DNA of 64,000 nucleotides from an uncultured Alphaproteobacteria bacterium (GTDB lineage Bacteria; Pseudomonadota; Alphaproteobacteria; CAAHEQ01; UBA3637). Made by a program: the position numbers and the translations under genes. Each line of letters starts with the position of its first letter. The first letter of the stretch is position 1. Positions 18,715-30,374 of the stretch are shown piece by piece. Below the pieces are notes generated by a model. The model had not been told where the DNA came from, searched no databases, and worked only from the letters and a program-made list of their open reading frames with translations. The stretch is from assembly GCA_944391735.1 (NCBI GenBank), contig CALXUR010000002.1, positions 2,484 through 66,483 on the forward strand. Direction: 5' to 3'.

Positions 18715-18791
18715 GGGTGTGTAGCTCAGGTGGTTAGAGCGTTACGTTGACATCGTAAAGGTCGCAAGTTCGAGTCTTGCCACACCCACCA
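18715..18791 (+). tRNA. tRNA-Val (anticodon GAC)
   Basis: Cloverleaf: acceptor GGGTGTG/CACACCC, anticodon loop TTGACAT, T-arm GCAAGTTCGAGTCTTGC, encoded CCA. Confidence 0.9.
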
Positions 18792-18810
18792 TAGATCTTG
18801 ACTTTCAAAA

Positions 18811-18835
18811 AACGCTTATTAACATAAGCGTTTTT
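18811..18835 (+). terminator. Rho-independent terminator after tRNA-Val
   Basis: Perfect hairpin AACGCTTAT-TAAC-ATAAGCGTT followed by a T-run. Confidence 0.75.
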
Positions 18836-18877
18836 CCATTATAGATATTTGTTTTTTTGGGGCGAATTGAATCCGAT

Positions 18878-19057
18878 TTAGACGCACCCGGCGCGAGGAA
18901 CTAAAATTTCTTTTATTTTTAAATACGTGTCATAATCAACTTTTTTATAGCTGCGATAATGTAATTTTCTTTTCAGTTCATTATGAACTGTGTTCGGGTG
19001 TTTTAATTCACAATCGGAAACGGCCGCAACAAGTTCTTTTATTTCAAGAGCTTTCAA
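18878..19057 (-). CDS. Small hypothetical protein (59 aa, TTG start), below the ORF-track cutoff
   Basis: Translates by hand as MKALEIKELVAAVSDCELKHPNTVHNELKRKLHYRSYKKVDYDTYLKIKEILVPRAGCV. The TTG overlaps the stop of the upstream gene. Confidence 0.3.
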   Translation of the reverse strand: MKALEIKELVAAVSDCELKHPNTVHNELKRKLHYRSYKKVDYDTYLKIKEILVPRAGCV

Positions 19058-19322
19058 TACTTATCGGCTCTGATACGTCTTCTGATACCACGGAGGTGGC
19101 TGTTAATCGTGCCGGAAACGTTCCTCTTTGGGCATGAAGTATTCCGAATATAACGGCTAATCCGATAAGTGCGATTAAACCAAGTAAAAATGTGGAATTA
19201 CCAAAATTACATCGACTGATGATAATATGATTTGTGTTTTTATTTATATTTTTCTCTGAATTTTCGGGCTTGACTTTGGCTTTTGATAAAATGTTTTCGA
19301 TTGAATCTGTATATTGTGCCAT
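19044..19322 (-). CDS. Small single-pass membrane protein (phage-module accessory)
   Basis: One TM helix (FLLGLIALIGLAVIFGIL). GGAGG RBS. Lies downstream of the XRE regulator on the same strand. Confidence 0.45.
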   Translation of the reverse strand: MAQYTDSIENILSKAKVKPENSEKNINKNTNHIIISRCNFGNSTFLLGLIALIGLAVIFGILHAQRGTFPARLTATSVVSEDVSEPISIESS

Positions 19323-19390
19323 TTTTCCTCCTTTATTTTGAAATAATACATACCATTATATGTTTATTTCAGAGAATAAAAAAGAAAAAA

Positions 19391-19795
19391 TCAACTTACT
19401 TTTTTATTTTTGTAAAGTAAACTTGTTAAATCAATAACTTGTGCTGTTCTTTGTTCGGCAGGTAAAGGTGCCAGATAATCATATAATGCGAAAACAAGCT
19501 CGATTTTGTCTGTAACTTCCATTGTAAGTTTATTTTTTTGTAGCCAATTTTCAACTGCAATGAAAAACTCTGTCAATATCTCTTTTTGAAGTGCCGGTTT
19601 TTCCGGTATGTCAAATAAATAGTTGGGTGTGATGTCCAAAAAACGACATAGACGCAAAATCATGTCGTGATCCGGATATCGTTCATCTTTGATATACTGA
19701 TTTAATCGGGGGGCACCTATTCCCAATTCTTTTGCCGCCCGATACTGACTGATACCTTTTTTTTGCAAGGCTTCCAATATTTTTTTTCCGATCAT
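19391..19795 (-). CDS. XRE-family HTH transcriptional regulator (CI-like repressor without a peptidase domain)
   Basis: HTH_3 pattern (ISQYRAAKELGIGAPRLNQYIKDERYP). Divergent from the tail-module operon. Confidence 0.8.
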   Translation of the reverse strand: MIGKKILEALQKKGISQYRAAKELGIGAPRLNQYIKDERYPDHDMILRLCRFLDITPNYLFDIPEKPALQKEILTEFFIAVENWLQKNKLTMEVTDKIELVFALYDYLAPLPAEQRTAQVIDLTSLLYKNKKVS

Positions 19796-19836
19796 ATTAA
19801 AAACATATCATATATCTTATTCAAAAACAAGAAATA

Positions 19837-19863
19837 AAATATTTCACACTTTGTGAAATATTT
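19837..19863. promoter_or_regulatory. Operator-like palindrome AAATATTTCACA-CTT-TGTGAAATATTT in the divergent control region
   Basis: Perfect 12-bp arms. Further TTCACA/TGTGA half-sites lie at about 19877-19900. Confidence 0.6.
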
Positions 19864-19924
19864 TTGTTGGCTTGTAGTTCACAATATGTTAATATGTGAT
19901 TTGTGTTACTCATCAGGAGGGTGT

Positions 19925-20578
19925 ATGAACAGATTGGAAAAAAGAAAAAGTTTTATGATGTATGCCAGCTTTATCGCACCGATTCGTTTATTGACGCAGG
20001 CTCAAAAAGGCGATTTACTGGATGCTGTTTTTACGTATCAGGCAACGGGATGCGAACCGAAAATGGATCCGCAAGTGCATATGTGCTTTATGTTTATGAA
20101 GATTCAATTTGATGCGGATAGTGAAAAGTACCGTCAAAAATGTGAGAAGAATCGTGCTTCAATCAACGCAAGATGGCATGCTTCATCCGTATCCGTCGGT
20201 ATGGGAACGAATACGTCACTTACCGATGATAAATGTGATAATGATGATAAAAAGAGAAAATTTTCAGGTGAAAATTTTAAAGAAAAACCACCGCTTCGTT
20301 TGAAGGATTCCGGTTTGGATTTATCCAAAGTTCCCGATTCATTTTATCACATCGCATCTGAAACAGGTTATACGGGGAATGTTGAATCGGCTTATCACTC
20401 CTTTGTTGTCTATTGGAAATCAAAGACCGGATCGGCTGGTAGGCATTCCGATTGGATGTCTGTTTGGCGGACTTGGCTCCGGCGGCGACTTCAATTTACC
20501 GCAAACAATCCGATTAAACAAATGACACAGCATAATATTGATTTTTTTGTTACAAATGCCGGCGGGGACAGCGTATAA
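19925..20578 (+). CDS. Phage-associated protein with a DUF6291-like N-terminal domain
   Basis: Pattern FMMYASFIAPIRLLTQAQKGDLLDAVFTYQATG...KYRQKCEKNR. AGGAGGG RBS before the ATG at 19925. Confidence 0.4.
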   Translation: MNRLEKRKSFMMYASFIAPIRLLTQAQKGDLLDAVFTYQATGCEPKMDPQVHMCFMFMKIQFDADSEKYRQKCEKNRASINARWHASSVSVGMGTNTSLTDDKCDNDDKKRKFSGENFKEKPPLRLKDSGLDLSKVPDSFYHIASETGYTGNVESAYHSFVVYWKSKTGSAGRHSDWMSVWRTWLRRRLQFTANNPIKQMTQHNIDFFVTNAGGDSV

Positions 20579-20631
20579 AAACAAACGAACAATTTCAAAC
20601 TGCCTTTGATATTTTAACGGCTTATTACGGA

Positions 20632-22077
20632 TTGCCTGCCTGGGAATTAAAGCCGAAAGAAGGGCAAAGCAGAGAGGAAATTATCCGCATTTGGTGTATT
20701 CCCGAATATGCTCAAGTGTGTAAATATTTCGGACGATTGTCCAAAACAGGTTTGGCACCGGATAAAATCGTTGTTGCCCGTTGGTTTAAAGAAGATACAG
20801 CACCCTTTTATAAAGGAAAACGTATCACGGCATCTGTTGCCGAACTCAAAGCAATGGGGGAAGGATCGGTTACGCTCAATATGGGAGGTATTCAATATAA
20901 AGCTTCTTTGAATTTGTCTTCTGTAACCTCTTATTCCGATGTCGCCTCGGCGTTGCAAACGGCTATCCGTTCAAATGTGGAGGGCGGCGAAATGTATGCC
21001 AAGTCAACTGTTGTGTTCAACTCCGTAACGGGCGGACTGATCGTAACGGCGGGTACTTCCGGCAAGGATGCCCTTATCGATGCTGTTGAACAAGCCGATA
21101 CGGGCTTTGATTATGCTGCGCCCTTGGGATTGGTCGAGGCCGAGCTCTCCCAAGGTGTAGATGCCGAAAAATTTTCGGATTTTTGTGATCGCATTTATCA
21201 TGCCAATGTGGCCGGTTTCAGTATCACGACTATGGAAACATTAACGCGGGATGATATCACAGCCGCCGTCAATTGGCTTCAAACGGTTCAGAACGGCCAA
21301 ACGTATAACACGCGCGTTCGTTTGGTCTTTAATGTTAATGATTTATCTGAAGCCAAAGCCATTCAATCGGATCTGTCCGATATGACGGGCTATGTGATGT
21401 GTTATGATCCGTATGGCGAGTTCATCAATGTGTTGGATTGCTCTATTTGTGCCAGTATAGACCATAATGTTGTTAACGGTAGTATTAACTTTAATTTTCA
21501 ACCCGCCGCGGGATATACGCCGGTTACGGATTTGGGAACGGTCACGGATTATCAATCCGGTCAGACAAATGTTGTTTTGTGGGATGATTTGAATACCCAT
21601 AAAATTTCCTGTGTGTATTCGGTCGGTTTTGGTTCGGCGGAAACAACGTATTATGGAAAAGGATTGATGCAGGGGGCTTTCGGAACCGAAGACGTTCAGG
21701 TCAATGAATCCTGGCTGGAAGAAGATATTCAGGTGCGTGTCATGAACGCTTTTAATACACTGAATAAGGTTAAATTACAAGGACAGGATGCTGTTGAATT
21801 GGTCAGCACTCTGATCGCCCCGTCTTTTGAAAAAGGAAAACAAAATGGTTCAATTGCTCGAAATGGCACACTGACGGATAGTGATCGCCTGAGCATTGTT
21901 CAGGCAACCGGTGTCGCGGCTGCTCCGGATGCGGTGGCTAACAACGGTTATTATTTCAAGGTTCAGGAATTGACCGCGGAAGACATCGCCGAACGACGTG
22001 TCCGGATTGTTTCCTGTTACCTGTGCGGCGGTGTTGTCAATGAAATTCGGATTATCAACAATATTTATGGTGCTTAA
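20632..22077 (+). CDS. Phage tail sheath-like structural protein (DUF3383-like)
   Basis: 481 aa, immediately upstream of tube, chaperone and tape-measure genes. Sequence pattern (ARW...GxV/I...[31 protein letters not shown]) resembles my recollection of the DUF3383 family. Only a TTG start is available. Confidence 0.5.
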
Positions 22078-22088
22078 GGAGAATAATA

Positions 22089-22553
22089 ATGGATACAGTT
22101 GCTATTTCATCAAACGGAACCGGTTTTACAACCTGTTCCTATTCTTTAACGGCTCTGCCGGTCGTTTCATATATGAAATTACAAGGCTTTGCCTCGGACG
22201 GCGTGTCGTGGGACGATATTGAACCGGCCGCGATCAGTATCGGTGCCGACGGTTTGGCCTCCGTTAATCAAAAACCCGTTTTATATACGGGCACGTTTAC
22301 ATTAAAAGCCAATTCGAACAGTCGTAATGTGTTGGATATGTTGGTTGATGTCGCAACGCCGGCACATGGAAAACCGGCAACATCCTATGAAATTGTTTTG
22401 ACGGAAAAAAACAGCCTGACCGGTTTTACATATGTTTATACCGGTGGTTTGATTACCTCCGCTTCGGGGGGAAATTCTGCCAATATGGAAGACGGGCAGG
22501 CGGATAAAACATATAAAGTCACGTTTACATCCCGGACAGCGATGCCGATGTAG
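22089..22553 (+). CDS. Phage tail tube-like protein (DUF3277-like)
   Basis: 154 aa, beta-rich, directly after the sheath-like gene and before the chaperone and TMP. Confidence 0.5.
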
Positions 22554-22600
22554 ATTTTTAAGGGGCGGCAACGCCCCTTTTTATAAATGGGGAAATTAAA

Positions 22601-22990
22601 ATGGAAAATACGAAAATCATTGAAATTGATGATATGGGCGATGTGAAAAAGTTCCGTATCCGTTTGTTTGATGTTTTGGAAGGCTTGGATTTTTTGGATG
22701 AGGCTGTCGGCCGGATCAGCGGTAAAGAAAAGGTGACGATTAAGCCGTTTTTGTCAACTTTGGTAAAGCTGGCTGTTCCGTTGGATACATCCGGCACAAT
22801 GCCTTTGTTGGGGGAGGAGCGTTTTCTGACACTTCAGGAAGCCTCTGTCTTGGTTAAGAATCCCTTGACCTTAATTGAGTTGGGATTTCGAATTTTGGAG
22901 TTTCAAAAGGTTTTTATTCAAAGCTCGCCGCACTTCCAAGGCTTGATCCGAACGCTCGAAGAAAAGTTGAATATCAAGATTTCGGATTAA
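22601..22990 (+). CDS. Tail assembly chaperone (G-like short form)
   Basis: 129-aa acidic protein immediately upstream of the tape measure gene. Confidence 0.55.
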   Translation: MENTKIIEIDDMGDVKKFRIRLFDVLEGLDFLDEAVGRISGKEKVTIKPFLSTLVKLAVPLDTSGTMPLLGEERFLTLQEASVLVKNPLTLIELGFRILEFQKVFIQSSPHFQGLIRTLEEKLNIKISD

Positions 22991-23145
22991 ATAATGCGGT
23001 GGGCAATATTTTAACGGGAGAATGCTCCGTTTCGGATTTAAAACAGATGGACTTGCGAGATTTTTGGATGCAACAGGTTGTCGGTTATGTCAATCAGAAA
23101 AATGAAATCGTTTTTTTTAATTTAAGTAAAAAGGTTGGAAAATGA
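22601..23145 (+). CDS. Tail assembly chaperone, -1 frameshift extended form (GT-like)
   Basis: The -1 frame is open from 22879 to the TGA at 23143-23145 and overlaps the TMP ATG as ATGA. It encodes ...NAVGNILTGECSVSDLKQMDLRDFWMQQVVGYVNQKNEIVFFNLSKKVGK. Candidate slip region is AAAAGGTTTTTA at 22905-22916, with no canonical heptamer. Confidence 0.4.
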
Positions 23146-24485
23146 GCGAACAAAATACAAATGGTCTGACTCTTGAAAAACTAAAGGCTTTTCAAAGCGC
23201 GCTTGTGACGTGGCGCGGTAAAATAGCCGCTGCGTTGGACACAATTCAAAAAACGGTGTCTGCCTCCTTTGCCCGTATGACGTTTGTCGGGTTTGAACGT
23301 AAACTGGGGGGGGGTCTGAAAGAAAAGTTACTCTCCTTTGGCACAAAAATATCCGGTATTGGTAAAAGTTTTTTAAATTTTTCCGATATTGTTCGTAACG
23401 TGCTTGTCGGATTGGGCAATCTTGTTTCACCGACGCGCCTGATTTCCGGTTTGTCGGCTCTATACGGTTACGCCCGTCAGACAGCTTATGTGGCCGAACA
23501 AACAGGTTTTTCCATCGGGGAGGTCAGTCGTTTTCAAAATCTGCTTGGCCTGTTCGGCGGCTCTGTCGAAGATACCGCCTCTTCTTTGTTACAGTTGCGG
23601 CGGGTTTTTTCCGAGTTGGAAACAACAAACGTGGTTGATGCCGTTACGACTCTGCGTGTTCGGTTAAAAGGTTTGACGGACACAGAACGAACAAATCAAG
23701 TGTCCGGATTGGGAATTGATAATCCGGCACTGTTGCGACTGTTGCGCATTTCTGATGAAAGGTTTAATCAGCTATCGGTAACGGCCGGTCGTTTTTGGGA
23801 TATGAACGAAAGAGGTGTGCAATCCGTTGAAGTTGTTCAATCTCTGCTCGCGCGGATTAAGTTGTTGTTTTCCGGAATGGGGTATGTTTTGGCGGATGCG
23901 ATTTTACCCTATGTTGAATCCATCAATCATGTCATGGAAAATAACGCCGGTTTGTTAAGTGGTTTGAAAGGTATTATCCACGGTATTGTCGGATTGGTTG
24001 CCGGTGTGGTGCAGATGATATACCAAATCGGATATGTTGTCGGGGCTGTGATAGGAAGTACTGTCGCCGCTGTGGATGGGTTATACCGTCGTATTGTTGC
24101 TCTCGGGCAGAAAATCGGCTCTTTTATCGGGGATGCGGCTTATCATGTTACGGCGTTTGTTCGGTCAATTCCAACTTTGATTCAAAAGGCTTTGTCATAT
24201 ATTTTATCTTTGGTCGGTCAAATGTGGGATGAACTTAAGTCTCTTCCGGGGATAAACTGGTTAATCGGTTCGGATGATAAAAAGTCTCACACGTTACCCA
24301 TGCGCGGTAAAGCCCGGGATATTATTTCAAGTTATTCGGATTCTCAAACAATTCGAAATGAAGGCGTGACAAACAATACGCGTAATACATTTCATATTAC
24401 TGTTCAAGCGTCCGGCGATCCCGATCGGCTCAGTCGTGAATTGGGCGCCGTTATTCGTCAGAATGCAACGGGGGTCAGACCATGA
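23142..24485 (+). CDS. Tail tape measure protein
   Basis: 447 aa, helical N-terminal two thirds, Gly/hydrophobic-rich C-terminal segments (GIIHGIVGLVAGVVQMIYQIGYVVGAVIGSTVAAV). Canonical position after the chaperone pair. Confidence 0.7.
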   Translation: MSEQNTNGLTLEKLKAFQSALVTWRGKIAAALDTIQKTVSASFARMTFVGFERKLGGGLKEKLLSFGTKISGIGKSFLNFSDIVRNVLVGLGNLVSPTRLISGLSALYGYARQTAYVAEQTGFSIGEVSRFQNLLGLFGGSVEDTASSLLQLRRVFSELETTNVVDAVTTLRVRLKGLTDTERTNQVSGLGIDNPALLRLLRISDERFNQLSVTAGRFWDMNERGVQSVEVVQSLLARIKLLFSGMGYVLADAILPYVESINHVMENNAGLLSGLKGIIHGIVGLVAGVVQMIYQIGYVVGAVIGSTVAAVDGLYRRIVALGQKIGSFIGDAAYHVTAFVRSIPTLIQKALSYILSLVGQMWDELKSLPGINWLIGSDDKKSHTLPMRGKARDIISSYSDSQTIRNEGVTNNTRNTFHITVQASGDPDRLSRELGAVIRQNATGVRP

Positions 24486-25030
24486 TATCTGTGCAATACT
24501 TATCTGAATTGTTTAATAAAAAACCTGTCTATGCAGTTTGGCATATCAGTGACGCCCATCCGACCGGAGAGTTGATTATGTCTTTTGACAGTATTCAACG
24601 TGTCGATTTTAAAGCGTCATCGACCTTGACGAATTATCCGATTGAACAGGGAACCGCTGTAACTGATTATAAATACAATAACCCGGATACTCTTTCTTTG
24701 ACGGGAATCGTTTCCAGAACGGGATTATATCATGGTGTCGGATTGGGCGTCGTTGATTCGGATACGGCAATTGATAAAATCAGACAGAGTTTGGATACGT
24801 ATCTGAAAGGTATTTATCGTTTAAAGATACAGACAAAAAACGGTGTGTATGATTGGTTTACGCTTCAATCGTATGATATTTCCGAAAATTATGAGAATTA
24901 CGGCTTGTTTGAAGTTGATATGTCGTTTCAACAAATTATGCGCCCGCCCTCTGTTCAAAATCCGGCTCAGGCCGCTTATGCTGATACCTTATCCGTGGGC
25001 GTTGTTTTGAAAAAACTTTTTTCCGAATAG
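24482..25030 (+). CDS. Tail tip/baseplate adaptor-like protein
   Basis: ATGA overlap with the TMP stop. Motif NYPIEQGTAVTDYKYNNPDTLSLTGIVS resembles tube-fold distal-tail/hub N-domains. Confidence 0.4.
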   Translation: MISVQYLSELFNKKPVYAVWHISDAHPTGELIMSFDSIQRVDFKASSTLTNYPIEQGTAVTDYKYNNPDTLSLTGIVSRTGLYHGVGLGVVDSDTAIDKIRQSLDTYLKGIYRLKIQTKNGVYDWFTLQSYDISENYENYGLFEVDMSFQQIMRPPSVQNPAQAAYADTLSVGVVLKKLFSE

Positions 25031-25038
25031 GTGTCTCT

Positions 25039-25341
25039 ATGACTAAATATGCAATTGAGTTAAACCAAACACCAAACCAATCTTTTTCTTTTGATGCCGG
25101 AAATAATGTCATTGATATGCATCTGCGCACAACAACGGAAGGAGTTCTGTATGCGGATGTTTCCGTTGATGGTGTTCCTGTCTTTTTCGGAAGAACGTGT
25201 TGTCATAAAATGCCGTTGTTTTTGACACAGAGAATTCGCGGTAATCTCTATTTTGAAGATCGTTATGGTAACGATGATCCGGATTACCGCGATTTTAATG
25301 ACCGTTTTATGTTAATTTATGATGATGGGTATGTATTATGA
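25039..25341 (+). CDS. Small tail/baseplate protein (hypothetical)
   Basis: 100-aa ORF tightly packed in the tail operon. Its stop overlaps the next start. Confidence 0.4.
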   Translation: MTKYAIELNQTPNQSFSFDAGNNVIDMHLRTTTEGVLYADVSVDGVPVFFGRTCCHKMPLFLTQRIRGNLYFEDRYGNDDPDYRDFNDRFMLIYDDGYVL

Positions 25342-25730
25342 CTCCGACTTGGTCTGTTCCTAAAAGATATTTGCGTTTAAACCTGTATGACGGCCGGCTT
25401 TCAGAACAGGAACGCCGTTTGCTTGTGGCGGTTGATGCCTGTTTTAAAGTTTCGTTTTCGGCACGCGCCTCTATTTCCGGATCGGTTCAAAGCGCGGATA
25501 TCACGTTGTCGGGTCTCCGTCGGGACATTATTTCCTATCTGGTGACGGCCTATACGACTTTTTCCGAACGTCAACTTAAAAATAAGATTGAAATAACGGC
25601 CGGATTTGATAATCGCCACGGTATGGTTTTCTCCGGAACCGTCGCCGAAGCCTCTCCCTTGTTTGACACGGCGGATTATGGTGTGAAGCGGATGCGGATT
25701 CAGGTGCTTATGTCGGATTTGGAGATTTAA
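25338..25730 (+). CDS. Baseplate hub-like protein (short)
   Basis: 130 aa. Pattern ADITLSGLRRDIISYL...IEITAGFDNRHGMVFSGTVAEA is reminiscent of hub/gpD-like N-terminal domains. Confidence 0.35.
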   Translation: MTPTWSVPKRYLRLNLYDGRLSEQERRLLVAVDACFKVSFSARASISGSVQSADITLSGLRRDIISYLVTAYTTFSERQLKNKIEITAGFDNRHGMVFSGTVAEASPLFDTADYGVKRMRIQVLMSDLEI

Positions 25731-25747
25731 CCGTTTCCGGATGTTAT

Positions 25748-26251
25748 GTGTATACGGGGGACGATGAAACCTATAACAGTGCCGTCATTCGGTGGTCTGT
25801 TCAAGGTTATGTTGATACCTCCGCCTTACAAGATGAGTTTGATTACGAGTATTATTTCATCGGAAACACCGTTCAGAATCAATTCGCTTTGGATATCTCT
25901 GCCGTCACGGAAAATCTGAATGAAAAATTGGATTGTAATCTAAACAATGCCACGGATGTCGGTCGATCAAATATCACACATTTATGTGTTCCGGATTATA
26001 GCCGGTTGGAATCCAAAACGGATGGTATCGATTATACAGCGGAACAAGACGGCTTCATTGTTTGGCAGGGTAAAATTGTTCACAGTTATAATACATATGC
26101 TTTAAAGATTAACGATGTAGAAATCGGATGGGCCTCTAATGAGGATTGGACAAGTTGTTGCTGCCGATGCGTTTACCCGATTGCCAAAGGAGATAAATAT
26201 CATTCAACCGGTAGTAATTATTTTGCGTTTTGTCCTGTGCGAGGGGCTTAA
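25748..26251 (+). CDS. Short tail fibre: N-terminal anchor plus knob module (paralog 1 of 4)
   Basis: GTG start. The C-terminal ~110 aa shares LNxKxDxxLNN...(C/W)(V/G)(I/L)PDYS...DG(F/Y) and terminal F.P..G motifs with the three downstream genes. Confidence 0.5.
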   Translation: MYTGDDETYNSAVIRWSVQGYVDTSALQDEFDYEYYFIGNTVQNQFALDISAVTENLNEKLDCNLNNATDVGRSNITHLCVPDYSRLESKTDGIDYTAEQDGFIVWQGKIVHSYNTYALKINDVEIGWASNEDWTSCCCRCVYPIAKGDKYHSTGSNYFAFCPVRGA

Positions 26252-26301
26252 CCGTTCATGAACGTCGATATAACGGTTTATTCATATAAAGGAGAAATAT
26301 A

Positions 26302-26607
26302 ATGAAAAAATATGCAAAGATAGTCAATGATAAAACAAAGGCCTGTGAAGTCGGGATTGGAACGAATAAAACATTTTATAAATCTATCGGAATGACAGAA
26401 CTGGATGTCGAACAAGCCTTCGATGGAAACTGGTATCTGACGGGATATGCACCCTCTGCGCCGGAACACGGTTACGCGGAAAAGCGATCTGCCGCGTATC
26501 CGTCAATTGCCGAACAATTGGATATGTTATATTGGGATAAAGTAAACGGCACCTCTGTTTGGATTGATACAATCGATGGAATTAAGTCGAAATTTCCAAA
26601 GGAGTAA
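26302..26607 (+). CDS. Small phage protein, possible fibre assembly/chaperone-like
   Basis: 101 aa with an AAGGAG RBS. Motif AAYPSIAEQLDMLYWD. Located between fibre-module genes. Confidence 0.35.
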   Translation: MKKYAKIVNDKTKACEVGIGTNKTFYKSIGMTELDVEQAFDGNWYLTGYAPSAPEHGYAEKRSAAYPSIAEQLDMLYWDKVNGTSVWIDTIDGIKSKFPKE

Positions 26608-26609
26608 AA

Positions 26610-26993
26610 ATGAGTAAAGATATCGATTATGGTTCTATTTTGGAATCACTGAATGGAAAAATAGATCTGGATATGAACAATACCGGCTCTTCCGGAAAAT
26701 CAACTGCAGTTGGTTGGGGTATACCTATGTATTCAACAGCCGTATCCAAGTCTTGTAATACGGAATATATATCCGATTTAAATGGATATGTATGTTGTTA
26801 TACAAATTATAGTTCAGCTTCTCATAATCAAAGTTTGTATATTGGTGGTGTGTTAATTCAACATGTTGGGACAGATATTGTATACGGGGCGACTTCAGTG
26901 TTTGCACCGGTAAAAATAGGGCAAACATATAAGATTGAAACTTCAGGAAATAAAGTTTTTACCATGTTGTTTATTCCTTGTTCAGATAGTTAA
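26610..26993 (+). CDS. Fibre knob module protein (paralog 2)
   Basis: ILESLNGKIDLDMNN...GWGIPMYSTAVS...LNGYVCC...FIPCSDS. Own AAGGAG RBS. Confidence 0.5.
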   Translation: MSKDIDYGSILESLNGKIDLDMNNTGSSGKSTAVGWGIPMYSTAVSKSCNTEYISDLNGYVCCYTNYSSASHNQSLYIGGVLIQHVGTDIVYGATSVFAPVKIGQTYKIETSGNKVFTMLFIPCSDS

Positions 26994-27093
26994 CTTAAAA
27001 ATATTCGTCGACTATCTTTGTGATGTGAAGTATCACGATGGTGACGAAAGATAGGAATAGTTGTGTTATACTGAAATTTTAAAGGAGCTCTAG

Positions 27094-27471
27094 ATGTCAA
27101 ATATTAATACAGATGATAATATTCTTTTAGAAGTCTTAAATAATAAAGTGGATCGTGATTTTAATAATATGAATCCCTCCGATACGGCACGAGAGGAAAT
27201 AATGCGCTGGGGAATACCTGATTATAGTCGCGGTGTTTCCATACAAACACCTTATACAATGCCGTATGACGGCTATGTTCTGATTGTTCGTGGGGGTGGT
27301 AAAAGCTTGGTTTCTCTGTATGTGGATGGTGTTTTGGTCGGTTCCAATAACTCTAATACAAGTAATGAAGGCGGTTCCATCACTTGTTTCGCGGCAAAAG
27401 AAAGTGTTGTGACGTGGGGTGATAACGGTAATGTAACAAACCGCATTGTTTTCCCGCTTCGTGGTTCTTGA
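27094..27471 (+). CDS. Fibre knob module protein (paralog 3)
   Basis: LLEVLNNKVDRDFNNMNPSDT...RWGIPDYSRGVS...YDGYVLI...VFPLRGS. Own AAGGAG RBS. Confidence 0.5.
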   Translation: MSNINTDDNILLEVLNNKVDRDFNNMNPSDTAREEIMRWGIPDYSRGVSIQTPYTMPYDGYVLIVRGGGKSLVSLYVDGVLVGSNNSNTSNEGGSITCFAAKESVVTWGDNGNVTNRIVFPLRGS

Positions 27472-27499
27472 TAAATTCGTTGGTGTTTGGGGGCGTGCC

Positions 27500-27883
27500 A
27501 TGGTTATGCAAGTGGATGAAAATATAATTTTAGAGGTTTTGAATGATAAGGCTGATCTTGATTTAAATAATATAAATCCATCTGATACGATAAAAAATCT
27601 GCTTATCAGATGGGGGCTCCCGGACTATACCGCCGGTATCGTTTATCAGGCTGGGACGCATAAAGCACCGGCGAGCGGCTTTATTTATGCTATGAAATGG
27701 GGAAATTACGGTGCAAGTGGGAAGGTATCTGTGAATGGTGCCGAAGTTCTTTGTTTTCAATGGGGGATTTATAACGGTAAGGATGGTGCGGGTGTCGGTA
27801 TCATGGCTCCTGTGGTTGAAAATGACGATATTGTCGCAACCGGAACGGGCTTTACATTTTATCCATGTCAAGGTGTTGTCTGA
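27500..27883 (+). CDS. Fibre knob module protein (paralog 4)
   Basis: ILEVLNDKADLDLNNINPSDT...RWGLPDYTAGIV...ASGFIYA...FYPCQGVV. Start set to the ATG at 27500, after the upstream stop at 27471. Confidence 0.5.
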   Translation: MVMQVDENIILEVLNDKADLDLNNINPSDTIKNLLIRWGLPDYTAGIVYQAGTHKAPASGFIYAMKWGNYGASGKVSVNGAEVLCFQWGIYNGKDGAGVGIMAPVVENDDIVATGTGFTFYPCQGVV

Positions 27884-27897
27884 AAATGTGTGTGTAT

Positions 27898-28218
27898 ATG
27901 AAAGTGAAAAATGCTATGCCTGAAAAAACACCCGAGTTTTTATTGTTTGCAATCGGTGCCGTGATGGGGCTTATCGGCTTAATCGTTCGTGGTATATCGT
28001 CCGCTCGGACGGCATTGACGGAATGGATTATTTCCGTTTTTGTCGCGGTTATAACCGGTTGGGCTGTTCGTGATTATATCGTCAGTGATGGTTTGTATAA
28101 CGCATGTGTCGCAACCGGATCGTTCTTCGGTGTCTATATCGTTCGCGGCATTGAAAATATCATGAAACACTTTTCGGCCGATCCGTTGGGAACTGTTGAA
28201 CGACTTCGTCAAAAATAA
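27898..28218 (+). CDS. Holin-like small membrane protein (three TM segments)
   Basis: TM segments FLLFAIGAVMGLIGLIV, WIISVFVAVITGWAV and ACVATGSFFGVYIV. Charged C-terminus. Precedes the endolysin. Start ambiguous (27865, 27898 or 27916). Confidence 0.45.
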   Translation: MKVKNAMPEKTPEFLLFAIGAVMGLIGLIVRGISSARTALTEWIISVFVAVITGWAVRDYIVSDGLYNACVATGSFFGVYIVRGIENIMKHFSADPLGTVERLRQK

Positions 28219-28219
28219 C

Positions 28220-28248
28220 TTGACTTTTTATTCAAAATATGCTATAAT
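28220..28248 (+). promoter_or_regulatory. Near-consensus sigma70 promoter TTGACT-17-TATAAT
   Basis: -35 at 28220-28225, -10 at 28243-28248. Begins 2 nt after the holin-like stop. Confidence 0.65.
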
Positions 28249-28260
28249 CCAATTTAGTTA

Positions 28261-28289
28261 AAAGCCGGAAATGTATCCGGCTTTTTTTT
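28261..28289 (+). terminator. Intrinsic terminator 1 (AAAGCCGGA-loop-TCCGGCTTT plus T-run)
   Basis: Perfect 9-bp stem, 6-nt loop and T8, only ~10 nt downstream of the predicted start site of the promoter above. Confidence 0.7.
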
Positions 28290-28291
28290 AT

Positions 28292-28316
28292 CCTCGGCAG
28301 ATAGCCGGGTTTTTTT
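28292..28316 (+). terminator. Intrinsic terminator 2 (CCTCGGC-AGATA-GCCGGG plus T7)
   Basis: 6-bp stem (one G-U pair) followed by T7. Ends at the first ATG of the endolysin ORF. Confidence 0.55.
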
Positions 28317-28331
28317 ATGAAAGGAAAGCTC

Positions 28332-28727
28332 ATGACGGAATTGGAAGTTCTGACAAAAACAATTTACGGCGAAGCCCGCGGTGAACGTCAACCCGGAATG
28401 GAAGCCGTTGCCAATGTTATTATCAATCGAGCCAAAAATCCCGGATGGTGGGGCAGGGATGTTGTTTCTGTTTGTTTAAAACCCAAACAGTTCAGCTGTT
28501 GGAACGAAGATGATCCTAATCGCCGGGTTTTGGAACACAACTTATCCGGTGATATTGTCTATCGGTTATGTGAACAAATCGCCCGTCGGGCATTGGCCGG
28601 ACAGTTGCCGGATCACACAAACGGAGCCACGCATTATCATACAAAATCGGTTCAACCAAGGTGGGCTGAACATTTGGTGCCTTGTGCCGATATCGGTCAT
28701 CATTTGTTTTATAAGGAGGTTGTATGA
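28332..28727 (+). CDS. Cell wall hydrolase, SleB/CwlJ (Hydrolase_2) family endolysin
   Basis: LTKTIYGEARGE...AVANVIINR...PKQFSCWN...ATHYH pattern. AAGGA RBS favours the ATG at 28332 over 28317. Confidence 0.8.
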   Translation: MTELEVLTKTIYGEARGERQPGMEAVANVIINRAKNPGWWGRDVVSVCLKPKQFSCWNEDDPNRRVLEHNLSGDIVYRLCEQIARRALAGQLPDHTNGATHYHTKSVQPRWAEHLVPCADIGHHLFYKEVV

Positions 28728-29080
28728 AACGGTGTCTTATCTGTGTCACTCTCTTATTCTTAACCGGGTGTGCGGCGAAGGAGGCGAGTCAAACAATTGC
28801 CGCGTCGACCTTGCGGGACGTGTCGGCGGTGCAGGAAACGGTAAAGAAGATAGAAGTTCAAACGCCTATCGAATGTAAAACAGAAGTGTTTATGGCACAT
28901 TTGGAGTCCATCAACCGGCAAGTGTCCGGTATCGGCGGGCAGATTGAAAGTATCTCGGCCGCATGTCAAACGGAAAAGCAGGTCTTGGAGGAACGGATTA
29001 CGGCACGTAACGGTGTTATTTTCGGGCTGGGCGTTTTGATACTGGTGTTGGGGTGGTTCGTGATCAGGAAAGGGAGATAA
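28724..29080 (+). CDS. Unimolecular spanin-like protein (N-terminal lipoprotein signal plus C-terminal TM anchor)
   Basis: Lipobox LLFLTGC at the N-terminus, TM helix VIFGLGVLILVLGWFVI at the C-terminus. ATGA overlap with the endolysin stop. Confidence 0.5.
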   Translation: MKRCLICVTLLFLTGCAAKEASQTIAASTLRDVSAVQETVKKIEVQTPIECKTEVFMAHLESINRQVSGIGGQIESISAACQTEKQVLEERITARNGVIFGLGVLILVLGWFVIRKGR

Positions 29081-29081
29081 G

Positions 29082-29624
29082 ATGATACAACTGAATTATG
29101 CGATTTTTATGGCTGTTTGGCGGCGATGGTTCGGAGGCGGGTTTGACAGGTTAGGAGATAACCGTTTTTTGCAACATCTTATAGGTGGCGGAGTGGCATG
29201 CTTTGTTTTGTGGTATAACGGGTATCATTGGATACAGGTTGTTTTGGCGGCATTAGTTCTGCAAGGATTGTTCTGGGCGCGCTCTCACGGATGTTGCTTT
29301 GATTACGGGCACGGGAAAGTGGATGAAAGCCGATACAATCAACTCTGGTATTGGAAGTATCTTAAAAAGATGATGCCGGAGTCTTTATGGTATACGTTTT
29401 ACGGAGATTTTTTCCTGATGTTGATTCGGTATAGTCTGCCGGCGTTTGTATTAGCGATTATCTTGGTGTCGTCCCTTTGTTTGATGATGGGGATATGTGT
29501 TGCTTCTGTGTATGCTTTGTGCTGGATTGGGTATGATTTCGGGTGGACAAAACGCCCGACCGAGATAGCCGAATATCTGGCCGGGTTTATGGCGGCGCTA
29601 TTGCTGGGGGCAGCCTTAATTTGA
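29082..29624 (+). CDS. Hypothetical multi-pass membrane protein at the end of the tail/lysis cluster
   Basis: Starts 1 nt after the previous stop. Four to five hydrophobic segments, Trp/Tyr-rich. Confidence 0.45.
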   Translation: MIQLNYAIFMAVWRRWFGGGFDRLGDNRFLQHLIGGGVACFVLWYNGYHWIQVVLAALVLQGLFWARSHGCCFDYGHGKVDESRYNQLWYWKYLKKMMPESLWYTFYGDFFLMLIRYSLPAFVLAIILVSSLCLMMGICVASVYALCWIGYDFGWTKRPTEIAEYLAGFMAALLLGAALI

Positions 29625-30374
29625 CGACAGAGGGCGAATAAGGTCTGTGATGACACCATGAAGTGTCTTAATTTCCGCTTCCGTCAGACCGGATCTCGTA
29701 AATATATTACGTAAATTACGTTGCATTCGGTCGCGTTTATCGGGGAATCGAAAATAACCGCGTTTTTCAAGTTCTGTTTCCAAGTGATTGAACAGAGCCG
29801 ATAACTCTTGTTTTGTAGCCGGCTTGGCCCCTCCCATTTCGAAATGGGTATTGTCATGGTCATGCGTTTGTTTGAACCATTCATATCCTAATAATAGAAC
29901 CGCTTGTGACAAATTCAGTGAACTGTGCCGCGGATTTAAAGGAATTTCAATGATACCGTCTGCCATAACAAGTTCCTCATTTTCCAGACCGGTTCGTTCG
30001 GCACCGAACAATAAAGCGGTTTTTAATTGCCGGTTGACTTGACCGTGTAATAATGAAACCGCTTTTCCCGGATGATAAACAGGTTTCGTCATTTCACGAG
30101 GACGGGCTGTTGTCGCTAATGTAAAGTGAATATCGGCCAAAGCATCTGGAAGTGATTGATAAACAATGGCTTTCTCTAAAATAACCTGCGCCCCCGATGA
30201 TGCTGACACGGCTTTTTCCGACAAGTGATCTTCTCGCGGACAAACCAACCGCAGTTCGGATAACATACAATTCATCATTGCGCGGGCAACCATACCGATA
30301 TTTTCGGCCATTTGTGGTCGAACAAGAACAATAACCGGTCCCTCTGCTTGTTGAAAAGAAACTTTTTTACTCAT
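29616..30374 (-). CDS. SpoU/TrmH-family RNA 2'-O-methyltransferase (TrmJ-like)
   Basis: SPOUT motifs (VLVRPQMAENIGMVARAM, LLFGAERTGL, IEIPLNP...SLNLSQAV) with a C-terminal extension as in TrmJ. Confidence 0.8.
   Translation of the reverse strand: MSKKVSFQQAEGPVIVLVRPQMAENIGMVARAMMNCMLSELRLVCPREDHLSEKAVSASSGAQVILEKAIVYQSLPDALADIHFTLATTARPREMTKPVYHPGKAVSLLHGQVNRQLKTALLFGAERTGLENEELVMADGIIEIPLNPRHSSLNLSQAVLLLGYEWFKQTHDHDNTHFEMGGAKPATKQELSALFNHLETELEKRGYFRFPDKRDRMQRNLRNIFTRSGLTEAEIKTLHGVITDLIRPLSSN

What the first reader, a model, noticed from the sequence alone, without database searches (positions are those of the whole stretch)
18792..29624. Headless, integrase-less phage-tail-like cluster with its own switch and lysis cassette next to tRNA-Val (tailocin / tail-like particle candidate)
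Housekeeping genes flank this block: tRNA-Val on the left and trmJ-like on the right. Inside it is a complete-looking tail morphogenesis and lysis programme:
- an XRE repressor with a divergent operator region
- a DUF6291-like protein
- sheath-like (481 aa) and tube-like (154 aa) genes
- a chaperone with a -1 extension and a tape measure (447 aa)
- three small baseplate-like ORFs and four fibre-knob paralogs
- holin-like, SleB-type endolysin and u-spanin-like genes, plus a terminal membrane protein

I see no capsid, portal, protease, terminase, head-tail connector, integrase, excisionase or replication gene anywhere in the 64 kb. I also could not find a copy of the tRNA 3' end at the right border. 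This is the signature of a domesticated tail-only element rather than a prophage. The structural part (20632-27883, about 7.3 kb) is much smaller than the classical R-type pyocin or eCIS loci I know. In a genome that otherwise looks like a streamlined alphaproteobacterium, it would be an undescribed lineage of particle.
Basis: partly seen in the sequence, partly recalled or inferred. Interest (0 to 1): 0.75.

Follow-up and report, generated by a model that had tools for sequence, protein, structure and literature searches.

The report
Broken copy of a headless phage-tail locus
The cluster is a real head-less, integrase-less phage-tail locus, but this copy has lost its baseplate, tail terminator and the start of its sheath gene, so it is a dead allele of a tail-only element that is still intact and under selection in other strains of the same uncultured gut-type alphaproteobacterium.

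Summary
No head, packaging or integrase gene occurs in the 64 kb, and there is no second copy of the tRNA end.

The cluster is not "complete-looking". Contigs of the same species (about 98% nt identity, same aspS/tRNA-Val/trmJ locus) carry a roughly 17 kb version. The window lacks two blocks of it.
- **D1 (1,823 bp):** removes three small genes, the tail terminator and sheath codons 1-58. It leaves an in-frame chimera with no ATG.
- **D2 (4,327 bp):** removes the hub from codon 117, spike, sheath initiator, Baseplate_J, Wedge1 and fibre codons 1-304.
- **A 2-nt frameshift** splits a third gene.

This explains the "unusually small" 7.3 kb structural part. The tail belongs to the E217/Pam3 minimal-baseplate myophage type.

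The locus is an allelic series: intact, D2, D1+D2, a 3.7 kb deletion and a 10.3 kb deletion. All alleles seen are headless. Two intact alleles differ by 2.9% with pN/pS 0.13. Degraded alleles show relaxed constraint. Relatives with 50-71% identical sheaths are complete phages. Sister species lack the element after aspS.

Verdict: the window holds a decayed allele. The intact alleles are a credible, untested contractile tailocin candidate.

The parts
18715..18791 (+). tRNA-Val(GAC), the left border and presumed ancestral integration site. No attR copy of its 3' end was found.
18878..19322 (-). Pseudogene. A 148-aa membrane-anchored ORF of the intact alleles is split here into 92-aa and 59-aa ORFs by a 2-nt deletion in an A-run (A5 to A3).
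19391..19795 (-). XRE/Cro-CI-type repressor, 134 aa, intact in all alleles.
19836..19864 (.). Operator-like perfect palindrome (13-nt arms, 3-nt spacer) in the divergent XRE/DUF6291 intergenic region. It is unique in the 64 kb and conserved in all 10 alleles fetched.
19925..20578 (+). DUF6291 protein, 217 aa. It is an early-region gene of this phage family. Its C-terminal part weakly resembles mycobacteriophage replication-initiation proteins.
20575..22077 (+). Chimeric gene remnant. Codons 1-41 of a 128-aa early gene (its ATG mutated to ATA) are fused in frame at 20697|20698 to sheath codons 59-517. This is deletion D1 (1,823 bp). It removed the rest of the 128-aa gene, a 109-aa gene, the DUF6362 gene, the 160-aa tail terminator and the sheath N-terminal arm.
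22089..22553 (+). Tail tube protein, 154 aa (E217_Gp32 family), intact.
22601..23145 (+). Tail assembly chaperone (129 aa, 22601-22990) with a -1-frame extension ORF (22999-23145, open from at least 22900). Both are conserved in the phage relative L001. No canonical slippery heptamer was identified.
23142..24485 (+). Tape measure protein, 447 aa.
24482..25030 (+). Dit_like distal tail / tube-B-like protein, 182 aa.
25039..25341 (+). Baseplate plug, 100 aa (Pam3_gp18 family).
25338..25730 (+). Truncated baseplate hub. Codons 1-117 of the 287-aa E217_GP41-type hub are followed by 14 out-of-frame codons. The D2 junction is at 25687|25688. D2 (4,327 bp) removed the hub C-terminus, spike, sheath initiator, Baseplate_J, Wedge1 and fibre codons 1-304.
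25688..26251 (+). 3' fragment of the 491-aa tail-fibre gene (codons 305-491, including the C-terminal knob). It is out of frame with the hub fragment and has no native start. The listed 167-aa ORF begins at an internal GTG at 25748.
26302..26607 (+). 101-aa protein of unknown function. It follows the fibre gene in every allele seen with this region, including the 10.3 kb deletion allele. A fibre-chaperone role is a guess.
26610..27883 (+). Three free-standing paralogues of the fibre knob: 26610-26993 (127 aa), 27094-27471 (125 aa) and 27500-27883 (127 aa). They are 25-35% identical to each other and to the fibre C-terminus.
27886..28218 (+). Holin-like small membrane protein, 110 aa. The assignment rests on position and hydrophobic segments only.
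   Evidence: no family hit:
28220..28309 (+). Promoter-like site (11/12 matches, TG extension) followed by two intrinsic-terminator-like hairpins, between the holin-like gene and the endolysin.
28332..28727 (+). Endolysin, 131 aa, Hydrolase_2/SleB family.
28724..29080 (+). u-spanin-like protein, 118 aa. It has an N-terminal lipobox (LTGC) and a C-terminal transmembrane segment, read directly from the sequence.
   Evidence: no family hit:
29082..29624 (+). 180-aa polytopic membrane protein of unknown function, the last variable gene before trmJ. pS against L003 is 0.11, well above the flanks.

Best explanation
**What the locus is.** Window 18.8-29.6 kb is a degraded, almost certainly non-functional allele of a headless prophage-derived contractile-tail locus next to tRNA-Val.

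**Ancestor (inferred).** The ancestor was a temperate E217/Pam3-type myophage. Relatives with 50-71% identical sheaths are complete phages.

**Ancestral head loss (shown).** Before the strains of this species diverged, one deletion removed everything from the small terminase to the collar protein, and the integrase is gone as well. What remained is about 17 kb:
- the repressor and operator;
- four early or regulatory genes;
- the tail terminator, sheath, tube, chaperone, tape measure, Dit, plug, hub, spike, sheath initiator, Baseplate_J and Wedge1;
- the fibre, a 101-aa gene and three spare knob ORFs;
- holin, endolysin, spanin and a membrane protein.

This intact form persists in several strains.

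**Selection (shown) and its meaning (inferred).** The intact form evolves under purifying selection. The inferred function is an SOS- or repressor-controlled R-type tailocin released by lysis. Particle production has not been shown.

**Further losses in the window's lineage (shown).**
- D2 removed the hub C-terminus through the fibre N-terminus. Without these genes no baseplate can form, so tube and sheath polymerisation cannot be nucleated and nothing binds a receptor. That consequence is inferred from established myophage assembly and the E217 structure.
- D1 removed the terminator and sheath residues 1-58. These include the N-terminal arm, which supplies a strand of the inter-subunit beta-sheet that holds the sheath lattice together. 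D1 also left the gene without a proper start codon.
- A 2-nt frameshift split the 148-aa gene.

**What survives.** The intact genes (tube, chaperone, tape measure, Dit, plug, knobs, lysis cassette, repressor) are leftovers that now drift under relaxed constraint. The repressor and lysis genes are kept in every allele. Possibly a repressor-less lysis cassette would be lethal; this is speculation.
For: **Deletions in the window**
- Contigs that are 97-99% identical at the same aspS/tRNA-Val/trmJ locus are collinear with the window except for two gaps: L004 6786-8608 and 13597-17923.
- The junction sequences show at most 1 nt of microhomology.
- D2 has the same junction in independent samples (L003, L005). 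The D1 chimera is found on 3 contigs from ENA, NCBI and Logan.
- The 130-aa ORF aligns only to residues 3-115 of the 291-aa hub of phage L001.
- Pfam DUF3383 matches the window protein from profile position 55 onwards.

**Role of the missing sheath segment**
- The L004 sheath aligns residue for residue with E217 gp31 (PDB 8env).
- The E217 paper assigns arm residues 1-23 to the inter-subunit sheet, and describes the gp29 terminator, gp41 hub, gp43 tip and gp44/45 triplex (PMC10329688).

**Other lesions and alleles**
- The 128-aa gene's ATG is ATA in the window. The 148-aa gene carries a 2-nt frameshift.
- Further alleles: L003/L005 have an A8-to-A7 frameshift in the sheath. L007 has a 3.7 kb deletion. 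L021-L023 have a 10.3 kb deletion from the terminator to the fibre.

**Headless in all alleles, complete phages further out**
- No allele carries head genes.
- The relatives L001, L012, L013 and L016 carry TerS/TerL, portal, MuF, scaffold/protease, cement, MCP, collar and terminator directly upstream of the sheath.

**Selection**
- Intact L004 against intact L024: 97.1% nt identity over 15.3 kb, no stops or gaps. Tail pN/pS is 0.13 (229 synonymous, 97 non-synonymous, p=9e-73). Genes flanking the head-deletion junction give 0.07-0.15, and 0.15 for L004 against L003.
- Private changes: degraded alleles 21 non-synonymous to 21 synonymous; intact alleles 33 to 85 (Fisher p=0.013).
Against: - No experiment or read-level data are available. 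All alleles come from metagenome assemblies, and some ENA and Logan contigs may derive from the same reads.
- Purifying selection in the intact alleles could partly be imported by recombination with head-bearing phages. pS is very uneven (sheath 0.03-0.06, tube 0.13, chaperone 0.27, fibre 0.25) and exceeds that of the flanks (0.02-0.04).
- Differences between the window and L003, which both carry D2, still give pN/pS 0.20. Either the variation predates D2 or some constraint persists.
- Loss alleles are at least as common as intact ones: about 11 contigs with the 99-aa terminator stub against about 9 with the full 160-aa terminator. This argues that any benefit is weak or conditional.
- Only 64 kb of the genome was inspected, so trans-complementation by another prophage cannot be excluded.
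Confidence: 0.85

Rival explanations
1. One reading: the window cluster is a complete, unusually compact tail-like particle or tailocin, with sheath, tube, tape measure, three small baseplate proteins and four knob fibres.
For: - All listed ORFs are open, and several have tail-family hits.
- A lysis cassette and a repressor are present.
- No head genes occur in the 64 kb.
Against: - Conspecific alleles show that the "small baseplate ORFs" are a hub stub and a fibre stub.
- The spike, sheath initiator, both wedge proteins and the terminator are deleted.
- The sheath lacks its N-terminal arm and a real start codon.
- Every complete relative, and the E217 structure, needs these parts.
Confidence: 0.03
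2. The locus was never domesticated. Even the "intact" headless alleles are only a less-decayed defective prophage with no selected function. The low pN/pS reflects variation imported by homologous recombination from active phages or very recent inactivation.
For: - At least four independent large deletions and two frameshifts segregate in one species.
- Loss alleles are as frequent as intact ones.
- The element is absent after aspS in sister species with 92% and 89% identical AspS, so it is young.
- pS is patchy and higher than in the flanks, which indicates recombination with outside alleles.
Against: - The head deletion is shared by all alleles, yet the genes on both sides of that junction and the whole 10.6 kb tail module stay open across 2.9% divergence, with pN/pS 0.10-0.15.
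- Degraded alleles show a significantly higher N:S ratio than intact ones, which is expected only if the intact ones are constrained.
- What was kept is exactly terminator to fibre plus lysis plus regulator.
- No closely related head-bearing donor phage was found. The nearest sheath is 71% identical, and IMG/VR holds none.
Confidence: 0.3
3. The retained right-hand genes of the window allele (101-aa protein, free knob ORFs, holin, endolysin, spanin) still serve the host under XRE control, independently of any tail. Possible roles are regulated autolysis or vesicle and public-goods release, or secreted knob proteins.
For: - These genes, the repressor and the operator are intact in every allele, including the 10.3 kb deletion allele.
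- The knobs and the 101-aa gene give pN/pS 0.11 between intact alleles.
Against: - Their retention is equally explained by their position at the ends of the element.
- Losing the repressor while the lysis genes remain may be lethal.
- The numbers are small: 11 substitutions.
- No family or structural assignment exists for the knobs (the AF2 model has pLDDT 52).
- A terminator pair separates the holin-like gene from the endolysin.
Confidence: 0.1
4. The deletions are metagenome assembly artefacts, such as collapsed repeats or strain chimeras, and the real genome carries the intact locus.
For: All data are short-read assemblies. L008 and L009 show unexplained joins next to the tube gene.
Against: - The junctions carry no repeat longer than 1 nt.
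- D2 is identical in three samples and two assemblers.
- The D1 chimera protein occurs on 3 contigs from ENA, NCBI and Logan.
- The 10.3 kb deletion occurs in at least 3 samples.
- The window allele carries its own private substitutions.
Confidence: 0.03

Closest known systems
Tails of Pseudomonas phages E217 and Pa193 (PB1-like Pbunavirus) and of cyanophage Pam3 (minimal-baseplate myophages)
   Same: - The protein families and gene order match: DUF3383/E217_gp31 sheath, E217_Gp32 tube, Dit_like, Pam3_gp18 plug, E217_GP41 hub, Gp138_N-type spike, sheath initiator, Baseplate_J plus Wedge1 triplex, and a terminator of the PF23961 ("gateway") type.
- The sheath aligns residue for residue with PDB 8env and 9b42.
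   Different: - Sequence identity is only about 25%.
- Those are complete virions with heads. This locus has no head, neck adaptor or collar genes.
- In the window the hub is cut at residue 117, and the spike, initiator, wedges, terminator and sheath arm are missing.
R-type pyocins and other contractile tailocins (P2-like R-pyocin, Mu-like syringacin, carotovoricin, diffocin)
   Same: - The concept matches for the intact alleles: a chromosomal, headless, integrase-less contractile-tail cluster with its own repressor and lysis cassette.
- Fibre alleles are strongly diverged by recombination (fibre pS 0.25).
- Spare receptor-binding cassettes are present.
   Different: - The phage ancestry differs (E217/Pam3-type rather than P2- or Mu-type). 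No paper in the library links DUF3383 with tailocins.
- The host is an uncultured alphaproteobacterium.
- No particle or killing data exist.
- The window allele fails the completeness criterion.
Rhizoviticin (Allorhizobium vitis), reported as the first alphaproteobacterial tailocin
   Same: - The producer is an alphaproteobacterium.
- The locus is prophage-derived and was described as an early evolutionary intermediate between a prophage and a tailocin region (PMC10811719).
   Different: - Rhizoviticin is F-type (non-contractile, siphovirus-like) and experimentally shown to kill.
- The present locus is contractile-type, unrelated in sequence family, and untested.
Cryptic or defective prophage remnants at tRNA genes (for example E. 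coli K-12 cryptic prophages; stated from general knowledge)
   Same: - It sits next to a tRNA.
- The integrase and att site are lost.
- It carries internal deletions with truncated and chimeric genes and frameshifts in homopolymer runs.
- It is polymorphic between strains.
   Different: - Here the ancestral headless form kept a full, ordered tail-plus-lysis-plus-regulator set under measurable purifying selection.
- Ordinary remnants usually do not show this.
Extracellular contractile injection systems (Afp, PVC, MAC, AlgoCIS)
   Same: A headless contractile sheath-and-tube machine encoded in a chromosome.
   Different: - No AAA+ ATPase, no Afp/PVC-type baseplate set and no toxin cargo genes are present.
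- A phage-type tape measure, chaperone frameshift pair and holin/endolysin/spanin cassette are present.

Membership tests
R-type tailocin (contractile phage tail-like bacteriocin) | A complete contractile-tail gene set: terminator, sheath, tube, chaperone, tape measure, hub, spike, sheath initiator, wedges and fibre. | tested here: not met
   In the window the terminator, spike, initiator, Baseplate_J and Wedge1 are deleted. The hub, fibre and sheath are truncated. The criterion is met by the conspecific alleles L004, L006 and L024.
R-type tailocin (contractile phage tail-like bacteriocin) | Absence of capsid, packaging, integration and excision genes in the cluster. | tested here: met
   No such gene occurs in the cluster or anywhere in the 64 kb. 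The same holds for all alleles. The rest of the genome was not available.
R-type tailocin (contractile phage tail-like bacteriocin) | Its own regulator and lysis cassette for release. | tested here: met
   An XRE repressor with a conserved palindrome and a Hydrolase_2 endolysin are present. The holin and u-spanin are inferred from sequence features only.
R-type tailocin (contractile phage tail-like bacteriocin) | Production of tail particles that kill related strains. | not testable with these tools
   This needs induction, EM and killing assays on cultured or enriched strains.
R-type tailocin (contractile phage tail-like bacteriocin) | Maintenance by selection after loss of the head. | tested here: inconclusive
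   Intact alleles give pN/pS 0.13 in the tail and 0.07-0.15 in the junction-flanking genes. Degraded alleles are relaxed. Patchy pS shows recombination that could import selected variation.
E217/Pam3-type myophage tail module | DUF3383 sheath, E217_Gp32 tube, Dit_like, Pam3_gp18 plug and E217_GP41 hub, in that order. | tested here: met
   Pfam hits are 1.6e-46, 1.4e-9, 1.3e-15 and 1.2e-14. The hub is recognised only through its 43% identity to the L001 hub (PF22759). The order is the same as in L012 and L016.
Defective or cryptic prophage remnant | Phage-derived genes with truncated or chimeric ORFs, missing essential modules, no integrase or att site, and polymorphic between strains. | tested here: met
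   Deletions D1 and D2, the frameshift and the start-codon loss are shown. There is no attR. The allelic series is shown.
Extracellular contractile injection system (eCIS) | An AAA+ ATPase, an Afp/PVC-type baseplate and cargo toxin genes. | tested here: not met
   No such Pfam or PHROG hits were found in any ORF of the cluster.

The most novel reading that the evidence does not exclude
The intact conspecific alleles (L004, L006, L024) may encode a working contractile tailocin derived from an E217/Pam3-type minimal-baseplate myophage. It would be the first R-type tailocin lineage in Alphaproteobacteria and the first from this phage family. It would carry three free-standing alternative knob cassettes behind the fibre gene. 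Natural knock-out alleles, including the window's, would segregate in gut populations. That pattern would indicate a costly weapon under balancing or fluctuating selection.
Probability: 0.45. Interest if true: 0.6.

Novelty: new member of a known kind. Interest (0 to 1): 0.4.

Why it matters
- **For the window.** It corrects an attractive misreading. The "ultra-compact tail particle" is a deletion derivative, so it should not be reported as a new minimal machine.
- **For the species.** The locus offers a natural allelic series within one uncultured gut-type alphaproteobacterium: intact, baseplate-less, terminator-less and fully tail-less alleles. It also carries a measurable signature of selection after head loss.
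- **For tailocin biology.** Such a series is a useful system for asking how a prophage becomes a tailocin and how quickly such weapons are lost. It would extend contractile tailocins to a new phage lineage (E217/Pam3 type) and a new bacterial class, if particle production is confirmed.

Tried and rejected
- **tRNA and att repeats.** I searched for an attR copy of the tRNA-Val 3' end and for flanking direct repeats. None were found.
- **Knob structure.** The AlphaFold2 model of the 125-aa knob, built from a 4-sequence alignment, reached only pLDDT 52. I did not run a fold search on it.
- **Small early genes.** PHROG and Pfam scans of the 128-aa, 109-aa, 148-aa, 101-aa and 180-aa proteins, the knobs, the spike and the fibre gave nothing useful.
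- **IMG/VR.** A scan with the full-length sheath found no close relative.
- **INPHARED.** Only sheath matches of 27% identity or less were found. The DUF6362 protein gave one unannotated faecal phage fragment.
- **Sample origin.** A literature search for the sample names (ONAT22, BRZ_DV, BRZ_SL) found nothing. The habitat is inferred only from co-occurring MAG names such as Oscillospiraceae and Methanobrevibacter.
- **Frameshift site.** No canonical X_XXY_YYZ slippery site could be identified for the chaperone -1 frameshift.
- **eCIS and GTA readings.** I considered both and rejected them. There is no AAA+ ATPase or cargo gene, and no head genes.
- **Assembly artefact.** I considered this as the cause of the deletions and rejected it. 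The junctions recur in independent samples and assemblers and lack repeats.
- **Sister species.** Synteny downstream of aspS is not conserved in the sister species. No "empty site" could therefore be defined, and the trmJ side was not examined.

Full report
**1. What is in the window**

ARAGORN finds tRNA-Val(GAC) at 18715-18791. A co-directional gene block follows it, and a SpoU/TrmJ-like methylase lies on the opposite strand at 29616-30374.

- XRE repressor (HTH_3, 3e-10);
- DUF6291 protein (7e-22);
- a 481-aa DUF3383 / PHROG "tail sheath" protein (1.6e-46);
- a 154-aa E217_Gp32 tube protein;
- a 447-aa protein with weak tape-measure hits;
- a Dit_like protein and a Pam3_gp18 baseplate plug;
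- a Hydrolase_2 (SleB-type) endolysin.

The tail therefore belongs to the E217/Pa193/Pam3 "minimal baseplate" myophage family. Identity to any sequenced phage is about 25%.

The XRE/DUF6291 intergenic region holds a perfect palindrome with 13-nt arms at 19836-19864. It is unique in the 64 kb and conserved in all alleles.

The rest of the window encodes housekeeping genes only: aspS, rmuC, lptC/A/B, pfk, uvrB, mreBCD, pbp2, rodA, the ATP synthase operon and others. There is no head, packaging or integrase gene, and no second copy of the tRNA 3' end. GC content is unremarkable apart from the AT-rich regulatory region.

**2. The window copy is not complete**

The only hit in the species-representative genome collection was L001, an alphaproteobacterial MAG with a 71% identical sheath. 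It is a full phage. Its gene order is terminase, portal, MuF-like, protease/scaffold, cement, major capsid, neck terminator (PF23961), sheath (517 aa), tube, chaperone, tape measure, Dit, plug, E217_GP41 hub (291 aa), spike, initiator, Baseplate_J, Wedge1 and fibre.

BLAST of its proteins against the window shows two things:
- homology starts only at window sheath residue 23;
- the window's 130-aa "baseplate" ORF equals residues 3-115 of the hub.

Nothing matches the terminator, spike, initiator, Baseplate_J or Wedge1. Pfam likewise matches the window sheath only from profile position 55.

**3. Conspecific alleles pinpoint the lesions**

I looked up the exact tube protein in public assemblies. 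This returned the window's own contig (ENA ERZ28613925, scaffold_63; 100% identical). It also returned contigs that are 97-99% identical over the same aspS/tRNA-Val/trmJ locus.

L004, L006 and L024 carry the following genes in order: XRE, DUF6291, a 128-aa gene, a 109-aa gene, a 133-aa DUF6362 gene, a 160-aa terminator, sheath (517 aa), tube, chaperone, tape measure, Dit, plug, hub (287 aa), spike (247 aa), Sheath_initiator (111 aa), Baseplate_J (393 aa), Wedge1 (210 aa), fibre (491 aa), a 101-aa gene, three knob ORFs and the holin-like gene. The 160-aa protein is 44% identical to the PF23961 terminators of L001, L012 and L013.

Against L004 the window lacks two blocks.
- **D1 (L004 6786-8608, 1,823 bp).** The junction reads ...ATTTGGTGT|ATTCCCGAATATG... 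It fuses codon 41 of the 128-aa gene in frame to sheath codon 59. That gene's ATG is ATA in the window, so the ORF only opens at a TTG.
- **D2 (L004 13597-17923, 4,327 bp).** It joins hub codon 117 out of frame to fibre codon 305. The 167-aa "knob" ORF is the fibre's 3' stub.

Neither junction has more than 1 nt of microhomology.

The 92-aa and 59-aa ORFs next to the tRNA are a single 148-aa gene broken by a 2-nt deletion in an A-run.

Adding D1 and D2 back turns the 10.8 kb of the window into the roughly 17 kb of the intact allele. This explains the "unusually small" structural part.

**4. Why these lesions are disabling**

The L004 sheath aligns residue for residue with E217 gp31 (PDB 8env) and Pa193 gp32 (9b42).

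The E217 structure paper (PMC10329688) reports the following:
- The sheath N-terminal arm (residues 1-23) supplies a strand of the four-stranded inter-subunit sheet that knits the sheath lattice.
- gp29, the lambda gpU-like "gateway", caps the tube and recruits the last sheath ring.
- The gp41 hub anchors the gp43 tip.
- Six gp44/gp45 triplexes form the baseplate nut that carries the fibres.

The window lacks the counterpart of every one of these. It is my inference that no tail can be nucleated, terminated or targeted. The inference rests on well-established myophage assembly.

**5. An allelic series, all headless**

Further alleles of the same locus:
- L003 and L005 carry D2 with the identical junction, an A8-to-A7 frameshift at sheath codon 24, loss of one knob ORF, and a YoeB/Phd toxin-antitoxin insertion.
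- L007 carries a 3.7 kb deletion from the tape-measure gene to Baseplate_J.
- L021, L022 and L023 carry a 10.3 kb deletion from terminator codon 87 to the fibre stop codon. This allele was seen on at least 8 contigs from at least 3 samples.

In the protein clusters, full 160-aa terminators occur on about 9 contigs and 99-aa stubs on about 11. The 287-aa hub occurs on about 6 contigs and the 130-aa stub on about 4. Some ENA and Logan contigs may come from the same reads.

Every allele has the same DUF6362-to-terminator junction and no head genes. The head deletion therefore predates strain divergence.

**6. Selection**

I computed Nei-Gojobori counts with my own script.

| Comparison | Region | Synonymous | Non-synonymous | pN/pS |
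|---|---|---|---|---|
| L004 vs L024 (both intact) | tail module | 229 | 97 | 0.13 (p=9e-73 vs neutrality) |
| L004 vs L024 | baseplate genes | 41 | 14 | 0.10 |
| L004 vs L024 | left-hand regulators | 44 | 21 | 0.13 |
| L004 vs L003 | genes flanking the head-deletion junction | 24.5 | 13.5 | 0.15 |
| window vs L004 or L003 | housekeeping flanks | 23 and 29 | 4 and 8 | 0.05-0.08 (pS 0.02-0.04) |

L004 and L024 are collinear over 15.3 kb at 97.1% identity, with no stop codons.

Changes private to one allele split as follows:

| Allele | Status | Synonymous | Non-synonymous |
|---|---|---|---|
| window | degraded | 9 | 11 |
| L003 | degraded | 12 | 10 |
| L004 | intact | 61 | 25 |
| L024 | intact | 24 | 8 |

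The difference between degraded and intact alleles gives Fisher p=0.013. Constraint on intact alleles and relaxation on broken ones is what a functional tail-only element with recent loss alleles predicts.

The caveat is that pS is patchy (tube 0.13, chaperone 0.27, fibre 0.25) and exceeds that of the flanks. Recombination with outside alleles is therefore evident and could import pre-selected variation.

**7. Distribution**

- Sheath homologues fall at 97% identity or above (this species), then drop to 71% or below.
- The 70% and 50% relatives that I inspected are complete phages or prophages.
- IMG/VR has no close relative.
- AspS places the host among unnamed "Alphaproteobacteria bacterium" MAGs at 76-79% identity.
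- Sister species with 92% and 89% identical AspS have no element after aspS and different downstream genes.

The element is thus species-restricted and young.

**8. Interpretation**

The window holds a dead allele of a headless tail locus (confidence about 0.85). Whether the intact alleles make a tailocin is open; I put it near 0.45-0.55.

In favour:
- the exact tail, lysis and regulator gene content;
- constraint after head loss;
- fibre diversification and spare knob cassettes.

Against:
- the abundance of loss alleles;
- the youth of the element;
- the possibility of imported variation;
- no phenotype data.

No paper in the library links DUF3383 with tailocins. The only alphaproteobacterial tailocin it holds, rhizoviticin, is F-type. 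A confirmed particle would therefore be a new member of the tailocin class rather than a new kind of system.

**9. Scores**

The finding as written, a complete compact particle, is not supported. The corrected picture is of moderate interest (0.4) as a natural series from prophage to tailocin to remnant.

Noticed in passing
window 17309-18637 (+); L004 3445-4722; L021 5431-6792; L003 4395-4721: Between aspS and tRNA-Val lies a 442-aa cysteine-rich protein. Its N-terminus looks like a type IV prepilin signal (GRS|MVEMLGVLAIMGVLAIGG, with E at +5). It is hypervariable between strains that are otherwise about 99% identical: 425 aa at about 90% nt identity in L004, 453 aa at about 88% in L021, and replaced by a 108-aa ORF in L003. 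It has no Pfam hit.
   Followed up: partly
window 26610-27883; L004 18846-20119; L003 14552-15341: Three free-standing ORFs of about 125 aa are paralogues of the fibre's C-terminal knob. They share the motifs ILEvLNxKxDxDxNN, PDYS and P-x-[RQ]-G. All lie in the same orientation, and there is no invertase. L003 lacks one of them. They may be alternative receptor-binding cassettes. The AF2 model was too poor to classify (pLDDT 52).
   Followed up: partly
window 28220-28309: A near-consensus sigma-70-like promoter (11/12 matches, TG extension) is followed at once by two strong intrinsic-terminator hairpins. They sit between the holin-like gene and the endolysin, which is an odd place to stop and restart transcription inside a lysis cassette.
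   Followed up: no
L003 16534-17032: In one allele a YoeB/ParE-type toxin and a Phd/YefM antitoxin pair is inserted between the spanin-like gene and the 180-aa membrane gene.
   Followed up: no
L008 1634-2204; L009 620-1565: In two short contigs the same tube gene (97-99.8% identity) is joined to unrelated DNA. One has a Phage_Mu_Gp27-like gene on the opposite strand after a truncated tape-measure gene. The other has a DHFR gene right after the tube gene. The foreign parts match nothing in the 64 kb window. They could be further rearranged alleles or chimeric scaffolds.
   Followed up: partly
L001 12001-13152 and 16077-16601; L012 8254-9027; L013 9404-12313: In the complete phage relatives, the gap between the tube and chaperone genes is a hotspot for inserted accessory genes: Bro-N, SocA_Panacea, HSDR_N and pRha. 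PBECR1 nuclease-domain genes sit after the plug and near the neck. The headless alleles have none of these.
   Followed up: no
window 19925-20578: Residues 152-187 of the DUF6291 protein match annotated replication-initiation proteins of several mycobacteriophages (44% identity, E=4e-4). Its N-terminal domain matches a gene of Vibrio phage BT-1011, which has the same sheath family. It may be a leftover replication or early gene.
   Followed up: partly
window 22089-22990 versus L004 10001-10902; fibre L004 17012-18487 versus L024: Synonymous divergence is very uneven along the locus: sheath 0.03-0.06, tube 0.13, chaperone 0.27-0.28 and fibre 0.25. The window and L003 are identical in the tube gene and differ only by two non-synonymous changes in the chaperone gene. 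This mosaic pattern points to gene-sized recombination between alleles.
   Followed up: partly
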